From a virus, in the IMG/VR virus record IMGVR_UViG_3300046002_004363, positions 1 through 64,000 of that record: a DNA stretch of 64,000 nt. One strand, 5' to 3'. Below are positions 1-64,000 of this stretch, piece by piece. Below the pieces are notes generated by a model. The model saw only the letters and a program-made list of their open reading frames with translations, did not search any database and was not told the origin of the DNA. The position numbers and the translations under genes are program-made. The number at the start of each line of letters is the position of its first letter. Position 1 is the stretch's first letter.

Positions 1-94
1 TTTTAATATTTCTTTAAAGAGGGTGGAAGAAAAAAGAAAAGAAAAAGAATTTAACGTAGTAACTTCATTCGGAGATGGAATGTAGTATTACTGC

Positions 95-220
95 TAACGT
101 TCCGCATATTAACGATGTGGCGTATTTAAACACATACGAAAACAAATAAACAACAAACAAAAAGTGAGCCGACACATTTCGGATTAACCAAAGCCAAGCC
201 ATATCGGTAATATGCTGTTA
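95..220. repeat. attC-like hairpin element 1 (TAAC...GTTA)
   Basis: TAAC-gttcc-GCATATTAACGATGTGGC pairs with GCCATATCGGTAATATGC-t-GTTA (18-bp stem, one G:T, one mismatch) around an A-rich loop. Confidence 0.8.
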
Positions 221-247
221 TATGATGGCTTTATATTCACAAATATT

Positions 248-514
248 ATGAAAAATTTTAAACAATTCAGAAGAAGTCAAATTGCAGAAATGAGAGAAGT
301 AACAGAAGTAGATATTAATGTGTTTAATAATCACGGATTTATTCATATATCTGAATACCCATTTGGTTATAATGTATCTATTTCTGATGCAGATAAAAAC
401 AACGGAAGTCCTAAAATTGGAGATATGATTTCAAGAAACCCTAAAAACCACTTTGACCAGTGGTTAGTTTCTGAACAATATTTCAAAGATAACTTTGAGC
501 AGTTAGTTGAGTAA
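248..514 (+). CDS. small cassette-borne phage protein (paralogue of 2569-2847); in-frame upstream ATG at 212
   Basis: ORF; ACAAATATTATG start context shared with 2569; C-terminal 35 aa identical to the paralogue. Confidence 0.8.
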   Translation: MKNFKQFRRSQIAEMREVTEVDINVFNNHGFIHISEYPFGYNVSISDADKNNGSPKIGDMISRNPKNHFDQWLVSEQYFKDNFEQLVE

Positions 515-530
515 GCTATTATATAACGTT
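407..530 (+). repeat. 124-bp exact direct repeat, copy 1 (copy 2 at 2740-2863)
   Basis: AGTCCTAAAATTGG...AAGCTATTATATAACGTT identical at offset 2333. Confidence 0.95.
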
Positions 531-653
531 TGCCCGCTATAATTTCAGCGTGGTGTGACACACAATAGCCTTTCGATTAAGCAAAAAGAAAACAAGAGTA
601 CAAAATGAACATTGAATTAAACCTTATGCCACAATTGAATAAACACGCTGTTG
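524..653. repeat. attC-like hairpin element 2 (degenerate)
   Basis: TAACG...TTCAGCGTGG / CCACAATTGAA...GCTGTTG; same length and ends as the others but weaker pairing. Confidence 0.6.
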
Positions 654-826
654 TGCGATGGTGCTTTTAAATATAAATTATGTTAGGACAAAGAGTATAT
701 TTTGATTATGGCTTTGGCTCACGAGGATTTGGAACTTATGTTTATTGTGCAAAAACTCACAAAGTATTAATGTTTTTTAAAGATGAAAATTAAAACCCGA
801 TTGAAAGGTAAAATGCTATAAATATT

Positions 827-1066
827 ATGGAATTAAAAAGAGAATTATCGTTAGGAGAAAAAAGATTGAGAATTAATTTTGATGACATCTTGACCAATGA
901 ATGTAGTGAGCATTTAAAGTTGAAATATGAACTTGCAAAAGTCATAAATAGAATTGATGCTCTTGAACAAAATGGAAGTGAACACGGAAGATTGAAATCA
1001 TTAGCAATGACAGATATTGAAAATGCTTCAATGTGGATTACAAAAGCTTTTACTCACAAGATTTAA
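827..1066 (+). CDS. Acb2/Tad1-like helical hairpin protein, putative anti-defence nucleotide sponge
   Basis: 79 aa; C-terminal RLKSLAMTDIENASMWITKA resembles the Acb2-type R..A.A.T..E...M...A helix. Confidence 0.55.
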   Translation: MELKRELSLGEKRLRINFDDILTNECSEHLKLKYELAKVINRIDALEQNGSEHGRLKSLAMTDIENASMWITKAFTHKI

Positions 1067-1151
1067 TTTGTTCTTTACAAATGGTTGGCGAATTATCAAA
1101 AATTCCGACTACAAAACAATTATTAGAAATCTTCAAAAAAGAAAAACAACT

Positions 1152-1385
1152 ATGAAACAAACAGCAATAGAATTTTTAATTAAACAATTAGAAATTCTTA
1201 ATTTAATAAAAGAGGGAGATATAGAAAACGAACTTTTTAGGCAAATTGAATTAGAAGCCAAAGAAATGGAAAAACAACAGATTATAGATTCAAATATTTC
1301 GGGTATGGAATTTATAGCAGTAGACCCAAACAAATACAATGAAGATGCTGAAAAATATTACAACGAAACTTTTAAAAACAGATAA
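1152..1385 (+). CDS. hypothetical protein, MKQTA...AKEME..QII family (paralogue of 63696-63923)
   Basis: Likely start MKQTAIEFL inside track ORF 1017-1385; termini shared with the paralogue. Confidence 0.7.
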   Translation: MKQTAIEFLIKQLEILNLIKEGDIENELFRQIELEAKEMEKQQIIDSNISGMEFIAVDPNKYNEDAEKYYNETFKNR

Positions 1386-1428
1386 TATTTATGGAATAGT
1401 GGTAATGGAAAAATATTAAATTAAAAAA

Positions 1429-1686
1429 ATGTCGCATAAAAAAATGTCAGAAAGAAAATTAGAATTAGATAATATAGTGGATATTTTATCCAAAATAAAA
1501 GATGATGATTTTTATTTTAAAGCTTATGCAAAAGATATAATTAATAGTTATATTAAGCAAGAATTTAAAAAAGCTTATAGTATTGAGGAAGTAATAGATA
1601 TTTTAGAAATATTTCGTTATGATATTGAACAAGGAAATGATTCGGAAAATATTCAAGAATGGTTTAAAAAATACATAAAACAATAA
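1429..1686 (+). CDS. hypothetical protein (YS.EEV family)
   Basis: ORF with YSIEEV...WFKK motif like 62136-62348. Confidence 0.65.
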   Translation: MSHKKMSERKLELDNIVDILSKIKDDDFYFKAYAKDIINSYIKQEFKKAYSIEEVIDILEIFRYDIEQGNDSENIQEWFKKYIKQ

Positions 1687-1691
1687 TAAAA

Positions 1692-1907
1692 ATGAAAGTA
1701 GTACACAGTCCAAGAACAAAAAAAGCCGACAAAGTAGTTAATTTACTTTTTTATGGAGATTTTAATTGCACAACTGGTTTCGGTAATGTATCGAAACAAC
1801 TTATTAATAGTTGGAGCAAAAATAAAAATTTCAATATCACAATATTGGCAATTAATGATTCATCTGAAAAACCATATAATTACAAAAACAATTTACAAAT
1901 TTTTTAA
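1692..1907 (+). pseudogene. N-terminal fragment of a GT-B (GT4-like) glycosyltransferase
   Basis: LLFYGDFNCTTGFGNVSKQL resembles the GT4 N-terminal strand-loop-helix; ORF stops after 71 aa at the junction repeat. Confidence 0.5.
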
Positions 1908-1920
1908 AAACAAATAAGAT

Positions 1921-2070
1921 ATGATAAAAGATTTTATAAAATTTGTAATACTACATCGTTGGAATAAAATAAATGAATCACACGTTAGATTTGCTGAATT
2001 AAGTGAATTTAAACCAAATGGATTACATTTAAGACTTTATAATTATATTAAAAAAATTAATAACATTTAA
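1921..2070 (+). CDS. small hypothetical protein (49 aa, not in ORF track)
   Basis: ATG to TAA between two TTTAAAAACAAATAAGATATG junctions. Confidence 0.55.
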   Translation: MIKDFIKFVILHRWNKINESHVRFAELSEFKPNGLHLRLYNYIKKINNI

Positions 2071-2083
2071 AAACAAATAAGAT

Positions 2084-2353
2084 ATGACAGCAATAGATAT
2101 TGAAAAGTTAAACCAACTTATATCAAGAACTGATATTAGTGGTAACGATAAGGTAAGGTGGCTTACAGACTTCATAGATGGTAGAGAATTTCAGCAACAA
2201 CAAGACAAGAAAATGTATAGCGAGGAAGAAGTAGATGTATTAGTAGATATGTTACAAAAATGCAAAGAATATTTTTTACTGAAAACTGATTCTAAAAGCG
2301 AAGAAAGAGCAGATGCAATAGGAGAAGTACTTAAACAATTTAAAAACAAATAA
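2084..2353 (+). CDS. hypothetical protein (QQDK..YSEEEV family)
   Basis: ORF; motif shared with 62136-62348. Confidence 0.7.
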   Translation: MTAIDIEKLNQLISRTDISGNDKVRWLTDFIDGREFQQQQDKKMYSEEEVDVLVDMLQKCKEYFLLKTDSKSEERADAIGEVLKQFKNK

Positions 2354-2356
2354 TAT

Positions 2357-2524
2357 ATGAAAAATTTAACAGAAACACCAAATCCAGCTGATTTTATGAT
2401 GTTGGGAGAAAAAGCATTTGAAGAAAATGTACATGAAAAATTAAGAGAAACATTATCTCCAACAGAAAAACAAATGTGGATAAGTGGATATTTGTTTGCT
2501 TTAACTCAACAAAATAAAAGATAA
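2357..2524 (+). CDS. small hypothetical protein (55 aa, not in ORF track)
   Basis: MKNLTETPNP... ORF directly after a junction repeat. Confidence 0.55.
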   Translation: MKNLTETPNPADFMMLGEKAFEENVHEKLRETLSPTEKQMWISGYLFALTQQNKR

Positions 2525-2568
2525 AACAAAACAAAAACCCGATTGCAAGGGTAAATGCTACAAATATT

Positions 2569-2847
2569 ATGGAATATTTTAAAAATTACAGAAGAACACA
2601 AATTGCAGAAATGAGAGAAGTAACAGAAAGCGATATTACAGACTTTCATAATATAGGTGCTATTGTAATACCATCTGATTTAGGAGATTGGAAACACCCA
2701 ATAAAAGTTAGTATTTCTGATGTAGATTTATTAAACGATAGTCCTAAAATTGGAGATATGATTTCAAGAAACCCTAAAAACCACTTTGACCAGTGGTTAG
2801 TTTCTGAACAATATTTCAAAGATAACTTTGAGCAGTTAGTTGAGTAA
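2569..2847 (+). CDS. small phage protein, paralogue of 248-514
   Basis: YRRTQIAEMREVTE...SPKIGDMISRNPKNHFDQWLVSEQYFKDNFE. Confidence 0.8.
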   Translation: MEYFKNYRRTQIAEMREVTESDITDFHNIGAIVIPSDLGDWKHPIKVSISDVDLLNDSPKIGDMISRNPKNHFDQWLVSEQYFKDNFEQLVE

Positions 2848-2863
2848 GCTATTATATAACGTT
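2740..2863 (+). repeat. 124-bp exact direct repeat, copy 2
   Basis: identical to 407-530. Confidence 0.95.
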
Positions 2864-2981
2864 AAAGCATATATTTCAGTAGCGTAATAGTAAACAATAA
2901 AGTAAAAATTAAACAATTAATAACCAAACAAACACTAACACAACGAAAGCATATAGTAGCTATTGAATATATGCAGTGTTA
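2857..2981. repeat. attC-like hairpin element 3
   Basis: TAAC-gttaaa-GCATATATTTCAGTAGC / GCTATTGAATATATGC-agt-GTTA, with one bulged T and one G:T. Confidence 0.85.
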
Positions 2982-3326
2982 GTAGCTGTTTTGAAATTCA
3001 CAAAAATTATGAATACAGATGAATTTATTTTACCGATTATTTTAGTTTCTGTTTTGCTAATTATGATAGTAATAGGAAATATTAAAAAACGTGCTTTTTT
3101 GAAAGGATATAAAAAAGCGGAATTTGATATAACATCAAGTATGTTAGATAATGCAACTTGGTTTGGTAGCAGACCGATATTTTACAATACACTTTATTTA
3201 TTTGCTGTTAAATACAGAAAATACGGTTATGTTTCAGCAAGTAGATTTCGTGATGATATTTTAAGTATTGACCAAGAAAAAAGAGTTACAGATTTACCTA
3301 AAGAAGAACTTGAACGTATTGTTTAG
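2976..3326 (+). CDS. cassette-borne membrane-anchored hypothetical protein
   Basis: hydrophobic FILPIILVSVLLIMIVIG; flanked by GTTAGTAGCT (2978) and AGCTACTAAC (3334-3343). Confidence 0.7.
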   Translation: MLVAVLKFTKIMNTDEFILPIILVSVLLIMIVIGNIKKRAFLKGYKKAEFDITSSMLDNATWFGSRPIFYNTLYLFAVKYRKYGYVSASRFRDDILSIDQEKRVTDLPKEELERIV

Positions 3327-3389
3327 GAAACATAGCTACTAACTACTTGATTGACGAAACAACACCACACTGTAACTAACTGATTTACA

Positions 3390-3623
3390 ATGAAAAACTT
3401 TGAGATAGTAAGTATAAATTACAAAGTATATTGGAGGTTTAAAGAACACCATAATTATAAAGTAACGCTATGCAAGAAGATAATAAATTGTCAACGTGGA
3501 ATCATAATAAAACAATCAGTTAAGGGTGGTAGTATAGGTTATTACATATCAGGTAAATTCATAAAGAGGAAAGACTTAAATAAATACATAGAAGTTATAC
3601 CTAAAGAAATATATCCTTTTTAA
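3390..3623 (+). CDS. hypothetical basic protein
   Basis: ORF only. Confidence 0.6.
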   Translation: MKNFEIVSINYKVYWRFKEHHNYKVTLCKKIINCQRGIIIKQSVKGGSIGYYISGKFIKRKDLNKYIEVIPKEIYPF

Positions 3624-3653: not shown

Positions 3654-3724
3654 CATATCTGAATATCCGACACGGAGAAGCCGAACACCGAACATAGTAG
3701 GCAATACATTTTAAATTATATTAT

Positions 3725-4021
3725 ATGGCTCAATTAATTGCAGTTAGCGTTGATCTAACAAAAATTGACAAAACAAGAATCGTTGAAGGTAAAAATGGAG
3801 GTAAGTACATAAACCTTACCATCTCTGTAAACGATGAGGAGGACCAATACGGAAACAATGTTTCTCTATGGCAGTCGCAAACAAAGGAAGAGCGTGAGGC
3901 TAAGGAGAATAGATTGTTCTTAGGTAATGGAAAGTCATTATGGAGTGATAGTGATAAAGGTGCAAAGACATCTAAGACTTCTAAGAAAGAAGAGGCTCAC
4001 AATGATTTACCTTTTAACTAA
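3725..4021 (+). CDS. putative single-stranded DNA-binding protein
   Basis: beta-rich small protein with DLPF tail, adjacent to ERF. Confidence 0.55.
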   Translation: MAQLIAVSVDLTKIDKTRIVEGKNGGKYINLTISVNDEEDQYGNNVSLWQSQTKEEREAKENRLFLGNGKSLWSDSDKGAKTSKTSKKEEAHNDLPFN

Positions 4022-4167: not shown

Positions 4168-4752
4168 ATGGCAACAGCAAAAAAAACACAAGAAACATTA
4201 GAAGAGAAATTAAATCTTATTCAAACAACTCTTAATGCACCAAAGAATTTATACAACTCATTTGGTAAGTATTCTTATAGAAACCTAGAAGGTATATTAG
4301 CAGGTGTAAAACCACTATTAAAAGATACAGGTTGTACTTTTGTCTTATCTGATGATATGGTGGAAGTAGGAGGTAGGATATACGTTCGTTCTTGCGCATC
4401 AATTAGTTATGGAGGGGAAACAATAGAGTCTTATGGTTGGGCTAGGGAAGAAGAAAGTAAGAAAGGAATGGATGCATCGCAGTTAACTGGATCTACATCA
4501 TCTTATGCTCGTAAATATGCTGCAAATGGTTTATTCGCTATTGACGATACGATTGATGCAGATGGATATAACACTCACGGAAAAGATGAAGTTACAAAAC
4601 CTAATAACTCCACAGCGCCAACCCCTAAGAAACCAACAATAAGTGACTTATCAAAGGTTAAGGATGCCTTAAAGAAAGATAGGGAGGCGACACTGAAGAT
4701 GCTTGAGAAGTACGACATAACGCCAGAACAAAGAAAGGAGCTTGGTATTTAA
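4168..4752 (+). CDS. erf: ERF-family ssDNA annealing protein
   Basis: KN.YNSFGKYSYR, AREEESKKGMDASQLTGSTSSYARKYA..GLFAIDD. Confidence 0.9.
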   Translation: MATAKKTQETLEEKLNLIQTTLNAPKNLYNSFGKYSYRNLEGILAGVKPLLKDTGCTFVLSDDMVEVGGRIYVRSCASISYGGETIESYGWAREEESKKGMDASQLTGSTSSYARKYAANGLFAIDDTIDADGYNTHGKDEVTKPNNSTAPTPKKPTISDLSKVKDALKKDREATLKMLEKYDITPEQRKELGI

Positions 4753-4776
4753 CCAGGCTCTTAAATAAAGTAATAT

Positions 4777-5496
4777 ATGAATAAGATAATCCTCATAGAC
4801 GCTGACAGTTTTGCATACATAGGTAATAACTGCGAAGAAGTAGACCAAGCATACGACAAAGTAGACCAGGCAATATCAAATATTATAGTGACATCTGGAG
4901 CAAGTCATTACACATTATTTGTAGAGAAACCATTCAACAATAACTTCAGGAAAAAAATTGTAAAGAGTTATAAAGTTGGTCGTGCAAACAAAGAACTGCC
5001 TAAGTTCTACAATGAAATTAAGGAATACTTAATTGGCAGTTGGAACGCTTATGGTCTCGGAGGTTATGAAAGCGATGATGTACTAATCTCCTACCACAAG
5101 AAGTGCAAAGAAGAGTATCCATTTACAGAGGTGGTTATTGCATCAATGGACAAGGACCTCAAGCAATATCCGATAGTAATGTTTGACACCTACTACCAGA
5201 GATTTGGTCAGGTGTATAATATCACAGAAGAGGAGGCTAATTATAATTTATGGGTTCAGGTGATTATGGGCGACAGCACTGATTCAATTAGTGGTATTAA
5301 GGGCAAAGGTATCAAGTATGCAGAAAGTGTCTTAAAAGGCTCTAAGAATCACTTTATGACCACTTGTCGAGCATATCGTGATAACTACGGAAGTAGATGG
5401 CAGAAGAACTTTATAAAGAATTACGTTCAGGTTAAGTTATTAGATAATCTGAATGTTAAGATTGACTTAACTGAGGTAGATTTTAATCAAGAATAA
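4777..5496 (+). CDS. 5'-3' exonuclease (T7 gp6/FEN-like)
   Basis: LIDADS, ESDD, SMDKDLKQ, GDSTDSISGIKGKG motifs. Confidence 0.85.
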   Translation: MNKIILIDADSFAYIGNNCEEVDQAYDKVDQAISNIIVTSGASHYTLFVEKPFNNNFRKKIVKSYKVGRANKELPKFYNEIKEYLIGSWNAYGLGGYESDDVLISYHKKCKEEYPFTEVVIASMDKDLKQYPIVMFDTYYQRFGQVYNITEEEANYNLWVQVIMGDSTDSISGIKGKGIKYAESVLKGSKNHFMTTCRAYRDNYGSRWQKNFIKNYVQVKLLDNLNVKIDLTEVDFNQE

Positions 5497-62300: not shown

Positions 62301-62708
62301 GAAGTGGAAAATGTTAGAGGTTGGTTTGAAGAATTTAAAAAGAAATAAGATATGGAACACTTTAAATACAGATGGAAAATAGTTAATGTATACTACGAAA
62401 CTATAGATGATGATCCAGAGTTAAGACCAGATATAGTACTTGATGCCGTTTATTATAATGGTATAGACATATTGCCAATAATGAATGAAGTAGATTGTAT
62501 TGAGTTAAAAGAAGAAATGTATAATCAATTATTTTAAAATATGAATAAGGTAGAAATTATTGCAGAATTAGATAAACTAATGTATATTGCAGAACAATTA
62601 GAGAATACTTTTTTAGTTGGTAGACTTGAGGCAATAAAGCAATCACTTATAAAGGATTGGAATGAGAGTGATGCTTACTATAAAATTATAAGTAATCAAT
62701 TGAAATAA
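59387..62708 (+). CDS. run of small early hypothetical ORFs (59387-59638, 59652-60068, 60081-60377, 60377-60670, 60663-60854, 61049-61255, 61259-61399 Cys-rich, 61598-61945, 62136-62348, 62352-62537, 62541-62708)
   Basis: co-oriented, tightly packed ORFs; 61259 and 62541 read manually. Confidence 0.6.
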
Positions 62709-62821
62709 CGGTTCTCGGCTTGGCGAAGTTGCAGAATGTTGAAATTAAACACTAAATATTACAGATTATGACTAAACATTCAGAAAATACCAAAAGTAGC
62801 AATAGCACAAAACCTGTGTTA
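62706..62821. repeat. attC-like hairpin element 4 (array boundary)
   Basis: TAACGGTTCTC-GGCTTGGCGAAGTTGC / GCAATAGCACAAAACC-TGT-GTTA, imperfect. Confidence 0.65.
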
Positions 62822-63040
62822 CAATCAGTTTTTTTTGACTTTGATTATTGGAATAAATGCAATGCTTTATGGAATGTTTCTCCGCATCATTCTTTTGAAA
62901 ATTTAGTAGTCATTGAATATGTTGGAACAAGTAAAATGAGAATTTCTATTTGTGTTGAAAAAAATGAATTTGAATTAGGTTTAAATAGATTTTGGAGTGA
63001 GTTCAAACGTCAAAGTGAAAATAATGCGTTACGTAATTAA
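62768..63040 (+). CDS. cassette-borne hypothetical protein starting inside the hairpin
   Basis: flanked by GTTACAATCAGTTTT (62818) and AAAATTGATTGTAAC (63039-63053). Confidence 0.7.
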   Translation: MTKHSENTKSSNSTKPVLQSVFFDFDYWNKCNALWNVSPHHSFENLVVIEYVGTSKMRISICVEKNEFELGLNRFWSEFKRQSENNALRN

Positions 63041-63049
63041 AATTGATTG

Positions 63050-63175
63050 TAACGTATGTGGCTTTAAGCAGTTGCCAATAAAACTGCCTTAACTTTTGAT
63101 TTAAAACTAATGATTACAGATACAAAACAACCTTTAAATTTAGCCGAAAGTGGCAATTGCTTAAAGCCGCTGTTA
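63050..63175. repeat. attC-like hairpin element 5
   Basis: TAAC-gtat-GTGGCTTTAAGCAGTTGCCA / TGGCAATTGCTTAAAGCCGC-t-GTTA, 20-bp stem. Confidence 0.9.
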
Positions 63176-63562
63176 CAAGCAGTGTTTTTAGTTCCTTATG
63201 TTCCGTATTATTTACGAATATTTGAACCAATTTACAACGAAAAATATACACTTGTTGGAATTATTGAAAATGAACTTTATTGCAAAGAAACTGAAATAGA
63301 TGATTGTTTCTCTTTTGAAATAGACGAAAATACATTTCCAATATTAAGACCGTTGTCTGATTTTTACGATATAAATGCACCCGCATTTATTGATACAAAT
63401 TTTGATATTCCAACACAATTAGTTTTGGTTGATTTATGCTCTAAAAAACAACATTATTCAAGCGTAAGATATTCAGATATGCAAGAGTTTTTACGTGAAC
63501 ATATTGACATTTTCAATCTTATTGAACAAGATTTAGCCGTTTCAATCCACGATGTTGTGTAA
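63110..63562 (+). CDS. cassette-borne hypothetical protein starting inside the hairpin
   Basis: PILRPLSD, HIDIFNLIE; flanked by GTTACAAGCAGTGTT (63172) and AACATTGCTTATAAC (63561-63575). Confidence 0.75.
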   Translation: MITDTKQPLNLAESGNCLKPLLQAVFLVPYVPYYLRIFEPIYNEKYTLVGIIENELYCKETEIDDCFSFEIDENTFPILRPLSDFYDINAPAFIDTNFDIPTQLVLVDLCSKKQHYSSVRYSDMQEFLREHIDIFNLIEQDLAVSIHDVV

Positions 63563-63571
63563 CATTGCTTA

Positions 63572-63681
63572 TAACGTTCCCACGCTTGGCATCAGTTGCC
63601 TAACGGAATAATCAAATGAATTAATAAAAAACAATAATGTCAAACGAAACACTAATAGGCGATTGTGCCAAACGTGTGTTA
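63572..63681. repeat. attC-like hairpin element 6
   Basis: TAAC-gttcc-CACGCTTGGCATCAGTTGCCTA / TAGGCGATTGTGCCAAACGTG-t-GTTA with one bulged T. Confidence 0.85.
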
Positions 63682-63695
63682 AAAAACGTATTAAA

Positions 63696-63923
63696 ATGAA
63701 ACAACAAACAGCAGTAGAATGGTTAGAAGAACAATTATTTGGTTCATTAGGAATTGAATTAACAGAACATCAATCAAAAATGGCTAATGAAATATTCTTT
63801 AAACAAGCCAAAGAAATGTTTGAAAGTCAAATTATTAATGCACATACATCAGGGCAATTAGAAAATGATTTACTACCAAACGAAAAAGCACAACAATATT
63901 ATAAGCAAACTTTTAAAAAATAA
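63696..63923 (+). CDS. hypothetical protein, MKQ.TA...AKEM family
   Basis: paralogue of 1152-1385. Confidence 0.7.
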   Translation: MKQQTAVEWLEEQLFGSLGIELTEHQSKMANEIFFKQAKEMFESQIINAHTSGQLENDLLPNEKAQQYYKQTFKK

Positions 63924-64000
63924 AAATTATGATTTTTAAATTAATTTTTGAGGACAAACAAGAATATGCACAAGCTAAATCACAACTTCATTTATTACAA

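What the first reader, a model, noticed from the sequence alone, without database searches (positions are those of the whole stretch)
62706..64000. Integron-like gene-cassette array in a phage, with mirror-image attC-like hairpins (continues at 1-3343)
Seen: six elements (95-220, 524-653, 2857-2981, 62706-62821, 63050-63175, 63572-63681) of 110-130 bp differ in sequence but share one architecture. Each has TAAC, a 4-8 nt unpaired linker, a 16-22 bp stem (twice with one bulged T), an A-rich loop, 1-3 nt and GTT. The DNA between elements is itself closed by its own inverted repeat: GTTACAATCAGTTTT/AAAATTGATTGTAAC, GTTACAAGCAGTGTT/AACATTGCTTATAAC, GTTATATGATGGCTT/AAGCTATTATATAAC, GTTAGTAGCT/AGCTACTAAC. 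The gene stop codon sits at or just before the closing arm. Known: integron attC sites conserve only AAC/GTT, fold as ssDNA with an unpaired spacer and extrahelical bases, and a cassette's two ends are complementary because it moves as a circle. Inference: these are circularisable mobile cassettes. They differ from classical ones in longer end-complementarity (10-15 bp versus about 7), hairpin upstream of the gene, and no integrase in the window.
Basis: partly seen in the sequence, partly recalled or inferred. Interest (0 to 1): 0.95.

Follow-up and report, generated by a model that had tools for sequence, protein, structure and literature searches.

The report
Integron-like gene cassettes in a phage
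This Flavobacterium phage keeps small accessory genes, including a DNA methylase, as swappable cassettes, each headed by a folded-DNA recombination hairpin. The hairpins belong to an integron-like gene-capture system shared by Bacteroidota bacteria and their viruses, but here the genes face the opposite way and the phage has no recombinase of its own.

Summary
Four of the six elements (95-220, 2857-2981, 63050-63175, 63572-63681) are clear members of one hairpin family. Two (62706-62821, 524-653) are degenerate.

The window is bases 1-64000 of a 99.6-kb contig that runs about 1.55 times round a 61.3-kb genome. So 1-3343 and 62706-64739 are two strain versions of one locus, not one continuous array.

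A covariance model built from other phages finds the window's elements and nothing else in 64 kb. It also finds hundreds of sites in viral contigs and arrays in Bacteroidia genomes. Stems covary (97% paired against 71% in shuffles). In 288 distinct cassettes the two ends pair over 15 nt, with a fixed G-T at position 11.

Homology with other phages breaks at the TAAC and GTTA junctions. The mobile unit is the hairpin plus the gene downstream of it.

Related phage arrays end at a short (267-284 aa) IntI/Xer-like tyrosine recombinase. Chromosomal arrays have the same enzyme family, but their genes lie on the opposite strand. This contig encodes no tyrosine recombinase.

Verdict: a recombinase-less, flipped, integron-type cassette array. 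Earlier reports of this scan found the same system on other DNA. Recombination itself is inferred, not shown.

The parts
1..98 (+). 3' end of a DNA methyltransferase cassette, cut by the contig start. Stop codon TAG at 83-85. Closing arm and TAAC at 84-98.
   Evidence: 97% identical to the Muminvirus mymlan6-1 methyltransferase gp007. The identity stops at TAACGTTC. The stretch is also 95-97% identical in two other loci.
95..220 (+). Hairpin element A1: TAAC 95-98, arms 104-121 and 198-215, loop of 76 nt, GTTA 217-220.
   Evidence: Model R1 scores 34.2 bits, E 1e-4.
217..527 (+). Cassette a: opening arm 217-231, ORF 248-514 (88 aa, no family), closing arm 513-527.
   Evidence: Arms complementary in 11 of 12 positions. 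The block 216-531 is 88.6% identical to IMG/VR locus L044, where it follows a different hairpin. No Pfam or PHROG hit.
524..653 (+). Degenerate element A2: TAAC 524-527, only a 7-bp stem (546-552 with 643-649), ends GTTG.
   Evidence: Fold. No R1 hit at E<=1.
654..2568 (+). Block of nine small ORFs with no hairpin sites. It lies between cassette a and its paralogue, and has the intergenic style of the phage's ordinary early genes.
   Evidence: ORF list. No R1 hits. No counterpart in the second pass of the contig.
2569..2860 (+). Paralogue a' of cassette gene a (ORF 2569-2847), with the same closing arm and TAAC (2846-2860).
   Evidence: 239-530 matches 2560-2863 at 82%. The identity ends right after TAACGTT.
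2857..2981 (+). Hairpin element A3: TAAC 2857-2860, arms 2867-2883 and 2959-2974 with one bulge, GTTA 2978-2981.
   Evidence: R1 scores 24.5 bits, E 0.02.
2978..3343 (+). Last cassette of array A: opening arm 2978-2987, ORF 3009-3326 (105 aa, hydrophobic N-terminus), closing arm 3334-3343. It is followed by TAC, the array end.
   Evidence: The array end TAAC|TAC resembles the ends that lie next to a recombinase in other arrays.
62541..62708 (+). Conserved phage gene that flanks array B. Its stop codon TAA is the first three bases of the first TAAC.
   Evidence: Homology to 68 elemo phage records (92-93%) ends exactly at 62708. elemoA reads TAAA there and has no array.
62706..62821 (+). Element B1, a hybrid and degenerate site: TAAC 62706-62709, GTTA 62818-62821. 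The loop and 3' arm are of the 64217-64346 type. The 5' arm is not complementary to the 3' arm.
   Evidence: No R1 hit.
62818..63053 (+). Cassette B1: opening arm 62818-62832, ORF 62768-63040 (which starts inside the B1 loop), closing arm 63039-63053.
   Evidence: Inverted repeat of 15 nt, 93% complementary. The block 62810-63055 is shared with L025 and L104 at 81-84%.
63050..63175 (+). Hairpin element B2: TAAC 63050-63053, 20-bp stem 63058-63077 with 63151-63170, loop of 73 nt holding the ATG at 63110, GTTA 63172-63175.
   Evidence: R1 scores 51.4 bits, E 9e-9. Fold z = -4.3.
63172..63575 (+). Cassette B2: opening arm 63172-63186, ORF 63110-63562 (150 aa, phrog_10841, function unknown), closing arm 63561-63575.
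63572..63681 (+). Hairpin element B3: TAAC 63572-63575, arms 63581-63602 and 63656-63676 with a bulge and a mismatch, GTTA 63678-63681.
   Evidence: R1 scores 49.5 bits. The element alone is 86-90% identical in L015, L034 and L048.
63678..64000 (+). Cassette B3, which runs on to 64220 outside the window: opening arm 63678-63694, ORF 63696-63923, and the start of a second ORF at 63929.
   Evidence: The closing arm 64203-64219 is complementary in 16 of 17 positions, plus one G-T. A fourth element (64217-64346, R1 46 bits) and a YopX cassette follow, and the array ends at 64739.

Best explanation
What it is. The two window ends hold two strain versions of one hypervariable locus of an elemo-like Flavobacterium podophage. 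Each version is an array of integron-type mobile gene cassettes.

The unit, read on the gene strand, is: G, a 4-6 nt spacer, a stem of 17-22 bp round a variable A-rich loop, T, GTTA with about 11 further bases (the opening arm), the gene(s), then the complementary closing arm ending in TAAC.

How it most likely works (inferred). A tyrosine recombinase of the short IntI/Xer-like kind recognises the site as a folded single strand. The folded strand is the gene strand in phages. The enzyme exchanges strands at TAAC|G. Two neighbouring sites release a circle. In that circle the two arms of the cassette come together around the hairpin and form a 15-bp outer stem with a fixed G-T pair. The circle re-enters at the array end TAAC|TAC...

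How this phage differs from chromosomal arrays of the same site family. Every gene is flipped, so the hairpin lies upstream of its gene. In about 40% of phage cassettes the hairpin supplies the start codon and the first 15-20 codons.

This contig has no recombinase. Turnover must therefore rely on an enzyme supplied by the host chromosome or by a co-infecting phage, or it happened in ancestors.

The cargo is small early genes and DNA methyltransferases. The methyltransferases are likely to protect the phage against restriction, which would let phages swap them.
For: Shown:
1. Model R1, built from 11 elements of Muminvirus and Polaribacter phages, finds four window elements and one just outside the window. 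All are on the gene strand, and there is no other hit in 64 kb.
2. On 141 aligned sites, 97.4% of cells pair, against 71.3% in shuffles and 31-50% when partners are slid. Thirteen of 14 stem pairs show compensatory changes. Two G-T pairs are invariant.
3. In 288 distinct cassettes the ends are complementary over positions 1-15. Position 11 is G-T in 240. Own ends pair at 9.6 of 12 positions, other cassettes' ends at 6.1, and ends that face each other across one hairpin at 6.2.
4. Breakpoints: elemo homology ends at 62708; mymlan homology ends at 102; blocks shared with other phages start and end at TAAC or GTTA. Of 15 gene segments seen in two or more contexts, 10 keep the upstream hairpin and change the downstream one, 1 does the reverse, and 4 change both.
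5. Modelled circle junctions fold 6.9 kcal/mol better than the same hairpin in its array context (93% of 304). The gene strand folds better than its complement in 97%.
6. In seven loci a 267-284 aa tyrosine recombinase directly follows the last cassette on the same strand: five IMG/VR viral contigs (L031, L038, L050, L086, L091) and two contigs from metagenome bins that carry phage-type arrays (L148, L149). The family hits were run on the five viral ones: NF040815 at 160-188 bits and TIGR02249 in two stretches, both below the curated cut-offs.
7. Bacteroidia genomes hold arrays of the same sites next to a homologous recombinase (39% identity, no large gaps), with genes on the other strand. Eighteen of 19 model-positive genomes have the recombinase, against 61 of 132 model-negative ones.
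8. The array-end motif TAAC|TA.TATATA is shared by phage and chromosomal arrays. The window's ends (TAAC|TAC...) resemble it in part.
Against: - No recombinase is found in this 99.6-kb record or annotated in Muminvirus mymlan6-1. Activity in these phages is therefore unproven.
- The published IntI1 assay did not recombine P12002L_attC1, a site that has this family's architecture (PMC9892861).
- Hairpins and gene segments sometimes have separate histories. Cassette a shares only its gene part with L044. B1 is a hybrid hairpin. Many hairpin clusters sit in front of several different genes. So homologous exchange inside or between hairpins also happens.
- Two of the six elements are degenerate.
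- Alignment A2 was fitted to the model, which inflates the pairing percentage somewhat.
- The genome-level association with the recombinase is not corrected for shared ancestry.
Confidence: 0.78

Rival explanations
1. Modular shuffling by homologous or microhomology recombination, with no dedicated site-specific enzyme. Hairpin modules that are 85-95% identical between unrelated phages would act as portable homology patches, like the promoter-stem-loop units of T4-type phages. The phage's own ERF and exonuclease genes lie just downstream of the array (window 4168-5496).
For: - Hairpin modules alone are shared at 86-95% identity with many phages, for example 64217-64346 and 63572-63681.
- B1 is a hybrid of two hairpins.
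- One hairpin cluster often precedes several different genes.
- ERF-like and 5'-3' exonuclease genes sit next to the array.
- This phage has no recombinase.
Against: - It does not explain why each cassette's two ends covary over 15 nt with a fixed G-T.
- It does not explain why stems covary while their sequence changes.
- It does not explain why breakpoints fall at the 4-7 nt junctions rather than inside the long homologous hairpins.
- It does not explain why arrays end at a tyrosine recombinase elsewhere.
Confidence: 0.1
2. The hairpins are mainly RNA elements of the early transcript, serving as RNase III-type processing sites or as start-codon presentation. The pairing of the gene ends would then serve mRNA stability, and mobility would be secondary.
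For: - In phages the structure lies on the transcribed strand.
- It holds G-T (G-U in RNA) pairs.
- About 40% of the loops carry the start codon in an A-rich unpaired loop.
Against: - In Bacteroidia chromosomal arrays the same structure, with the same strand asymmetry, lies on the strand opposite to the genes. It cannot be an mRNA element there.
- No Rfam family matches.
- Terminator and promoter scans are at chance level.
- The idea does not explain the cassette-level breakpoints.
Confidence: 0.06
3. Non-autonomous transposable elements (MITE-like, or IS200/IS605-type hairpin-guided single-strand transposition) that happen to flank genes.
For: - The elements are short, have inverted repeats, occur in many copies and are shared between Flavobacterium phages and hosts.
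- A survey reports many MITEs shared by Flavobacterium genomes and viruses (PMC11602168). I did not check whether those are the same elements.
Against: - No HUH or other transposase was noticed in the loci whose ORFs I read, though I ran no family search for one; the recurrent neighbour of arrays is a tyrosine recombinase.
- The elements occur only in ordered, single-strand arrays, one per gene, not scattered.
- The inverted repeats that matter flank the gene, differ for every cassette, and covary.
Confidence: 0.03

Closest known systems
Classical integrons: IntI, attI and attC cassette arrays, for example class 1 integrons and the Vibrio cholerae chromosomal integron with VchIntIA (PDB 2a3v)
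   Same: - Cassettes are bounded by imperfect hairpin sites that conserve only AAC and GTT cores.
- There is an unpaired spacer between an outer and an inner helix.
- The loop is variable.
- A cassette's two ends are complementary, as expected for units that pass through a circle.
- Folding is biased to one strand.
- Related arrays end at a tyrosine recombinase that matches the integron-integrase models in part.
   Different: - The related recombinases are 267-310 aa. They match TIGR02249 only in two stretches either side of the IntI-specific insertion, and score below the cut-off.
- End complementarity is 15 bp with a fixed G-T, against about 7 bp.
- In phages the genes are flipped, so the hairpin is upstream and often encodes the N-terminus.
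- This phage has no recombinase.
- IntI1 did not recombine a site with this family's architecture in the published assay (PMC9892861).
CALINs (clusters of attC sites lacking an integron integrase) in phage genomes, Qi et al. 2023 (PMC9892861)
   Same: - A recombinase-less cluster of attC-type sites in a virulent phage, with DNA methyltransferase cargo.
- Their P12002L_attC1 (Polaribacter phage) has this family's architecture: TAAC, G-spacer, stem, T, GTTA.
- My model and scan find further members in that phage.
   Different: - That study reports 17 CALINs among 10,705 phage genomes and does not mention Flavobacterium phages.
- In the parts I read or searched (section 3.4, term searches of the main text and the one supplement held) it does not describe the flipped gene orientation, start codons inside the hairpin, the 15-bp end pairing or a cognate short recombinase.
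- P12002L_attC1 was the one site of six that IntI1 did not integrate.
rAID-1 recombinase-associated gene arrays of gut Bacteroidales, Ross et al. 2019 (bioRxiv 10.1101/471110)
   Same: A XerD-family tyrosine recombinase is followed by co-directional genes separated by repetitive intergenic sequences that the authors call 'reminiscent of integrons'. This is the layout I see in the Bacteroidia chromosomal arrays.
   Different: - Those arrays are chromosomal, carry immunity genes and lie in gut Bacteroidales.
- I did not test whether their repeats belong to the same site family.
- No phage arrays and no site anatomy appear in the passages I retrieved by term search; I did not read the whole paper.
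PeSL (promoter-early stem-loop) mobile regulatory cassettes of T4-type phages. Recalled from memory (Arbiol et al. 2010), not checked here.
   Same: Hyperplastic early regions of phages, in which small ORFs are each preceded by a stem-loop with expression signals and are shuffled between phages.
   Different: - PeSL shuffling is ascribed to homologous recombination between conserved sequences.
- Here the sequence varies while the structure and the end pairing covary, and a tyrosine recombinase accompanies related arrays.

Membership tests
Integron (classical definition) | An integron integrase (IntI) with the IntI-specific insertion in the catalytic domain, next to the array | tested here: not met
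   No PF00589 match in the 99.6-kb record. Recombinases beside related phage and chromosomal arrays score 94-215 bits on TIGR02249 (cut-off 265). They match in two stretches that skip roughly profile positions 180-247. The alignment to VchIntIA (2a3v) stops at residue 180.
Integron (classical definition) | attC-type sites: an imperfect hairpin with AAC and GTT cores, an unpaired central spacer, a variable loop, and structure conserved more than sequence | tested here: met
   Consensus structure with TAAC paired to GTTA, a spacer of 4-6 nt against 0-1 nt, a covarying stem, and loops of 5-79 nt. Four of the six window elements fit.
Integron (classical definition) | The cassette's two ends are complementary, so the site is completed in the circular form | tested here: met
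   Own ends pair at 9.6 of 12 positions against 6.1 for other cassettes' ends, over 288 cassettes. All complete window cassettes fit. Modelled circle junctions are 6.9 kcal/mol more stable. Circles themselves were not observed.
Integron (classical definition) | Promoterless genes pointing away from intI, each followed by its attC | tested here: not met
   In the window and in all phage arrays examined the hairpin precedes its gene, and the genes point towards the recombinase end. The chromosomal arrays do have the gene-then-site order.
Integron (classical definition) | Recombination by an integron integrase at G|TT of the site | not testable with these tools
   The only published assay on a site with this family's architecture (P12002L_attC1 with IntI1) gave no verified junction (PMC9892861).
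CALIN (cluster of attC sites lacking an integron integrase) | Two or more attC sites close together, with no integron integrase nearby | tested here: inconclusive
   Met for sites as defined by my model R1 and for the absence of a recombinase. IntegronFinder and HattCI, whose attC models define a CALIN in practice, could not be run here. HattCI did call P12002L_attC1, which has this family's architecture (PMC9892861).
Bacteroidota recombinase-associated arrays (rAID-1-like) | A XerD-like tyrosine recombinase at the head of co-directional genes separated by repeated intergenic sites | tested here: not met
   The window's arrays have no recombinase. Arrays with this layout and the same site family do exist in Bacteroidia genomes G141, G071, G045 and G046. 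Identity with the published rAID-1 repeats was not tested.

The most novel reading that the evidence does not exclude
Bacteroidota and their phages share a second lineage of integron-like gene capture. It is run by a short IntI/Xer-like recombinase that lacks the insertion held to be essential for folded-site recognition. Its sites carry a 15-bp outer helix that forms only in the excised circle, and fixed G-T pairs that mark the active strand. Virulent phages use a flipped version in which the recombination hairpin doubles as the translation-start module. This lets unrelated podoviruses and siphoviruses, and perhaps their hosts, trade methyltransferases and other early genes as ready-to-express cassettes.
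Probability: 0.55. Interest if true: 0.85.

Novelty: new variant of a known kind. Interest (0 to 1): 0.8.

Why it matters
If the mechanism holds, three things follow.
- It gives a concrete molecular route for the gene-by-gene mosaicism of early regions in marine and freshwater Flavobacteriia phages. That includes rapid swapping of DNA methyltransferases, which the isolators of the Muminvirus phages linked to host range (PMC7077304).
- It offers a natural test of how a tyrosine recombinase without the IntI insertion reads a folded single strand.
- Integron surveys keyed on the IntI-specific domain and on canonical attC models would miss a large pool of cassettes.

A practical point: GenBank records of these phages annotate some hairpins as small hypothetical proteins.

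Tried and rejected
- Folding energy as evidence. Only one of the six elements beats its shuffles, because the long loops are penalised, so I relied on comparison with other sequences instead.
- A phage-encoded recombinase shared by the two phage groups. A tblastn of all mymlan ORFs against the contig finds only the 66-aa array-end gene, the methyltransferase end, hairpin-encoded stretches and a few short weak matches. Pfam finds nothing for mymlan gp001-gp004 or for the 66-aa protein.
- The 66-aa gene as a recombination factor. It occurs in only 13 viral loci, while arrays occur in more than 120. A ribbon-helix-helix fold is only a weak Atlas lead at 0.89. I dropped the idea.
- Close relatives of the phage recombinase in the genome collection. 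Bacteroidota chromosomal hits at 37-42% identity (L150, L152, L153) have no R1 sites nearby. The chromosomal arrays were found by searching with the site model instead.
- Rfam, promoter and terminator scans gave nothing above chance.
- My hand-written stem scanner gives one AT-rich false hit in the contig (57485-57394, minus strand). The same low-complexity false hit recurs at the ends of the Muminvirus records. I excluded these.
- Literature searches for a description of this phage system found none beyond those cited.
Full report
**What the DNA is.** The window is bases 1-64000 of a single 99,577-base viral contig. A self-comparison shows that 65010-99574 repeats 3672-34882 at 87-96% identity, with a period of 61,338 bases. 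The contig therefore runs about 1.55 times round the genome of a podophage related to the Baltic 'elemo' Flavobacterium phages, which are 59.7-61.7 kb, and it switches between two strain variants on the way. As a result, 1-3343 (array A, cut at its left end by the contig start) and 62706-64739 (array B) are the same locus in two variants. They are not one array wrapped around a circle. Downstream the two passes realign, with 3672-3997 matching 65010-65335 at 96%.

**Check of the observation.** I read both ends.
- Four elements have the stated anatomy:
  - 95-220: an 18-bp stem;
  - 2857-2981: 16-17 bp with a bulge;
  - 63050-63175: 20 bp;
  - 63572-63681: about 20 bp with a bulge and a mismatch.
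- Element 62706-62821 does not fold as described. Its loop and 3' arm are 85% identical to the element at 64217-64346, while its 5' arm belongs to another type, so it is a hybrid.
- Element 524-653 has only a 7-bp stem and ends GTTG.
- By energy alone only 63050-63175 beats its shuffles (z = -4.3).
- The gene-flanking inverted repeats are all present. A fifth pair, outside the window, closes the third cassette of array B (63678-63694 with 64203-64219). A fourth element (64217-64346) and a YopX-domain cassette then follow, before the array ends at 64739.

**More than chance.**
- I built covariance model R1 from 11 short elements taken only from Muminvirus phages and Polaribacter phage P12002L.
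- In the window R1 hits 63038-63188 (51.4 bits), 63560-63694 (49.5), 83-233 (34.2) and 2845-2994 (24.5). It also hits 64205-64359 just outside the window (46.1). All hits are on the gene strand, and nothing else in the window reaches E<=1.
- On 141 aligned hits from 28 sources, 97.4% of cells form standard pairs. The figure is 71.3% in shuffles and 31-50% when partners are slid. Thirteen of 14 stem pairs show compensatory changes.
- That alignment was fitted to the model, which favours the structure. The margin is nevertheless large, and the independent MAFFT alignment already showed 12 of 20 pairs with compensatory changes.

**Mobility.**
- Homology to 68 elemo records stops exactly at 62708, the TAA of the first TAAC. 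elemoA reads TAAA there, has one unrelated gene instead of the array, and realigns at 64956.
- Window 1-102, the end of a DNA methyltransferase gene, is 97% identical to the siphovirus Muminvirus mymlan6-1, and the identity stops at TAACGTTC. Apart from the cassette and hairpin stretches and the 66-aa array-end gene, the two phages share only a few short, weak protein matches.
- Other shared blocks start and end at the junctions: 216-531, 62816-63055, 63050-63189, 63572-63688 and 64217-64346.
- Ten Muminvirus-group genomes carry 8-13 such elements each, with the same cassettes in different orders. The 657-bp methyltransferase with its hairpin, for example, sits in several positions.
- I scanned all fetched loci and found 546 elements. 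Fifteen gene segments occur in two or more contexts. Of these, 10 keep the upstream hairpin and change the downstream one, 1 does the reverse, and 4 change both. The usual mobile unit is therefore the hairpin plus the gene downstream of it, with exchange at TAAC|G.
- Exceptions exist. Cassette a at 217-527 shares only its gene part with L044, and 62706-62821 is a hybrid hairpin. So some exchange also occurs at GTTA or inside hairpins.

**Cassette ends.**
- Over 288 distinct cassettes the opening arm (GTTA plus 11 bases) and the closing arm (11 bases plus TAAC) are complementary across positions 1-15 and not beyond.
- Position 11 is a G-T pair in 240 of 288 cassettes, with G in the opening arm and T in the closing arm.
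- Own ends pair at 9.6 of 12 variable positions. Ends of different cassettes pair at 6.1, and the two arms that face each other across one hairpin in the array pair at 6.2.
- This is the classical argument for circular cassettes, in a longer and more regular form.
- I joined each cassette's closing arm, its upstream hairpin and its opening arm in silico. The resulting structure is 6.9 kcal/mol more stable than the same hairpin in its array context (93% of 304 cases). The gene strand folds better than its complement in 97%. The fixed G-T pairs after TAAC, inside the stem and at position 11 explain this asymmetry.

**The enzyme.**
- The contig has no PF00589 match, and mymlan6-1 has no annotated integrase.
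R1 finds 223 sites in 83 of those loci.
- In five viral loci, and in two contigs from metagenome bins that carry phage-type arrays, a 267-284 aa tyrosine recombinase follows the last cassette on the same strand, 35-45 nt after a conserved end motif TAAC|TA.TATATA.
- For the five viral recombinases the best family is NF040815 ('site-specific tyrosine recombinase/integron integrase'), at 160-188 bits against a cut-off of 220. TIGR02249 (integron integrase) matches in two stretches, below its cut-off.
- The closest solved structure is an archaeal XerA-type recombinase (4a8e), matched over the full length. VchIntIA (2a3v) aligns only to residue 180. These enzymes therefore lack the IntI-specific insertion.

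**Hosts.**
- In 151 sampled Bacteroidia genomes, 19 have R1 hits at E<=0.001.
- Multi-site arrays in G141, G071 and G046, and a single site in G045, lie next to a homologous recombinase. That enzyme is 39% identical to the phage one over its full length and has the same family profile.
- In these arrays every gene is on the strand opposite to the R1 orientation, so each gene is followed by its site, as in ordinary integrons. The recombinase is co-directional with the genes.
- Read in the R1 orientation, the junction next to the recombinase has the same TAAC|TA.T.TATA motif as in phages.
- Eighteen of 19 R1-positive genomes have the recombinase at E<=1e-40, against 61 of 132 R1-negative ones. 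This is not corrected for shared ancestry.
- G097 is an unpublished genome. It enters only these two tallies.
- This strand geometry argues against a purely RNA role for the hairpin. No Rfam family matches, and terminator and promoter scans are at chance level.

**Consequences of the flipped layout.**
- In 153 of 384 distinct phage elements an ATG inside the element opens an ORF that runs at least 40 codons past GTTA.
- In the window this holds for 62768-63040 and 63110-63562.
- In the YopX cassette the Pfam domain begins at residue 25, and there is no in-frame ATG between GTTA and the start of the domain.

**What is known.**
- Qi et al. 2023 (PMC9892861) reported integrase-less attC clusters in phages with methyltransferase cargo. 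Their P12002L_attC1 has exactly this architecture, and it was the one site of six that IntI1 did not integrate. My scan and model find further members in that phage.
- Ross et al. 2019 described XerD-like recombinase-associated arrays in Bacteroidales with integron-like intergenic repeats.
- The isolators of the Muminvirus phages noted differing methyltransferase sets, but no cassettes, hairpins or integrase.
- I found no paper that describes the flipped phage arrays, the start codons inside hairpins, the 15-bp end pairing with its fixed G-T, or the short recombinase beside phage arrays.
- Earlier reports of this scan describe the same system on at least ten other genomes. I used them as leads and re-tested their main claims here.

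**Verdict.** This is a real, recombinase-less array of integron-type cassettes, in a flipped variant. It is a member of a widespread and little-described Bacteroidota and phage system. The site structure, the covariation, the junction breakpoints, the end pairing and the association with a recombinase elsewhere are shown. Folded single-strand recombination at TAAC|G, the circular intermediates and a recombinase supplied from outside the phage are inferred.

Noticed in passing
whole contig; window 3672-34882 against contig 65010-99574: The 99.6-kb record is about 1.55 genome lengths of two strain variants (87-96% identical) joined head to tail, with a period of 61,338 bases. It is probably an assembly of a circularly permuted or terminally redundant genome from a mixed population. 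IMG/VR rates it 'linear, 100% complete'.
   Followed up: partly
contig 64788-64988 (L003:2788-2988), just outside the window: A 66-aa gene directly after array B is 89% identical in protein to the gene that follows the array in 46 siphovirus records of the Muminvirus group. Apart from the cassette material, the two phage groups share only a few short, weak protein matches. elemoA keeps only the last 35 or so bases of this gene. No Pfam or PHROG family matches, and ribbon-helix-helix is only a weak Atlas lead. Array A is followed by a different 77-aa ORF (3390-3623).
   Followed up: partly
window 654-2568: Nine small ORFs without hairpin sites lie between cassette gene a (248-514) and its 82%-identical paralogue (2569-2847). 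A 48-nt upstream segment is also repeated (786-833 and 2528-2575). The layout suggests that duplication or homologous exchange between cassette copies trapped ordinary early genes inside the array.
   Followed up: no
window 62706-62821: The first site of array B is a hybrid. It has the 5' arm of one hairpin type joined to the loop and 3' arm of the type seen at 64217-64346. This points to exchange inside hairpins as well as at their junctions.
   Followed up: partly
L001 (MN812227) 543-650, 2184-2300, 3075-3209, and the matching small CDS in other Muminvirus records: Small 'hypothetical protein' CDS of 100-135 nt in the GenBank records coincide with the hairpin elements. They are probably not genes.
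   Followed up: partly
window 1-102; L181 (G030:C12) 1565-1667; L100 8531-8628: The methyltransferase cassette end is 95-97% identical in a 9.4-kb contig of a Bacteroidia genome assembly that consists almost wholly of an array in the phage-type orientation. That contig may be phage DNA within the assembly.
   Followed up: no
all phage elements; window 62815-62821, 63169-63175 and contig 64340-64346: ORFs that start in the loop cross the junction mostly in two of the three reading frames (76, 63 and 14 cases). The window's cassettes read ..TG TTA.., so hairpin modules can be swapped onto different genes while staying in frame.
   Followed up: partly
stem of the elements (alignment A1 column 28; for example GGCTTTG opposite CAAAACC at 63060-63066 and 63162-63168): A conserved unpaired position (C opposite A) lies near the base of the inner stem in many elements. 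It may be the counterpart of the extrahelical bases of attC sites.
   Followed up: no
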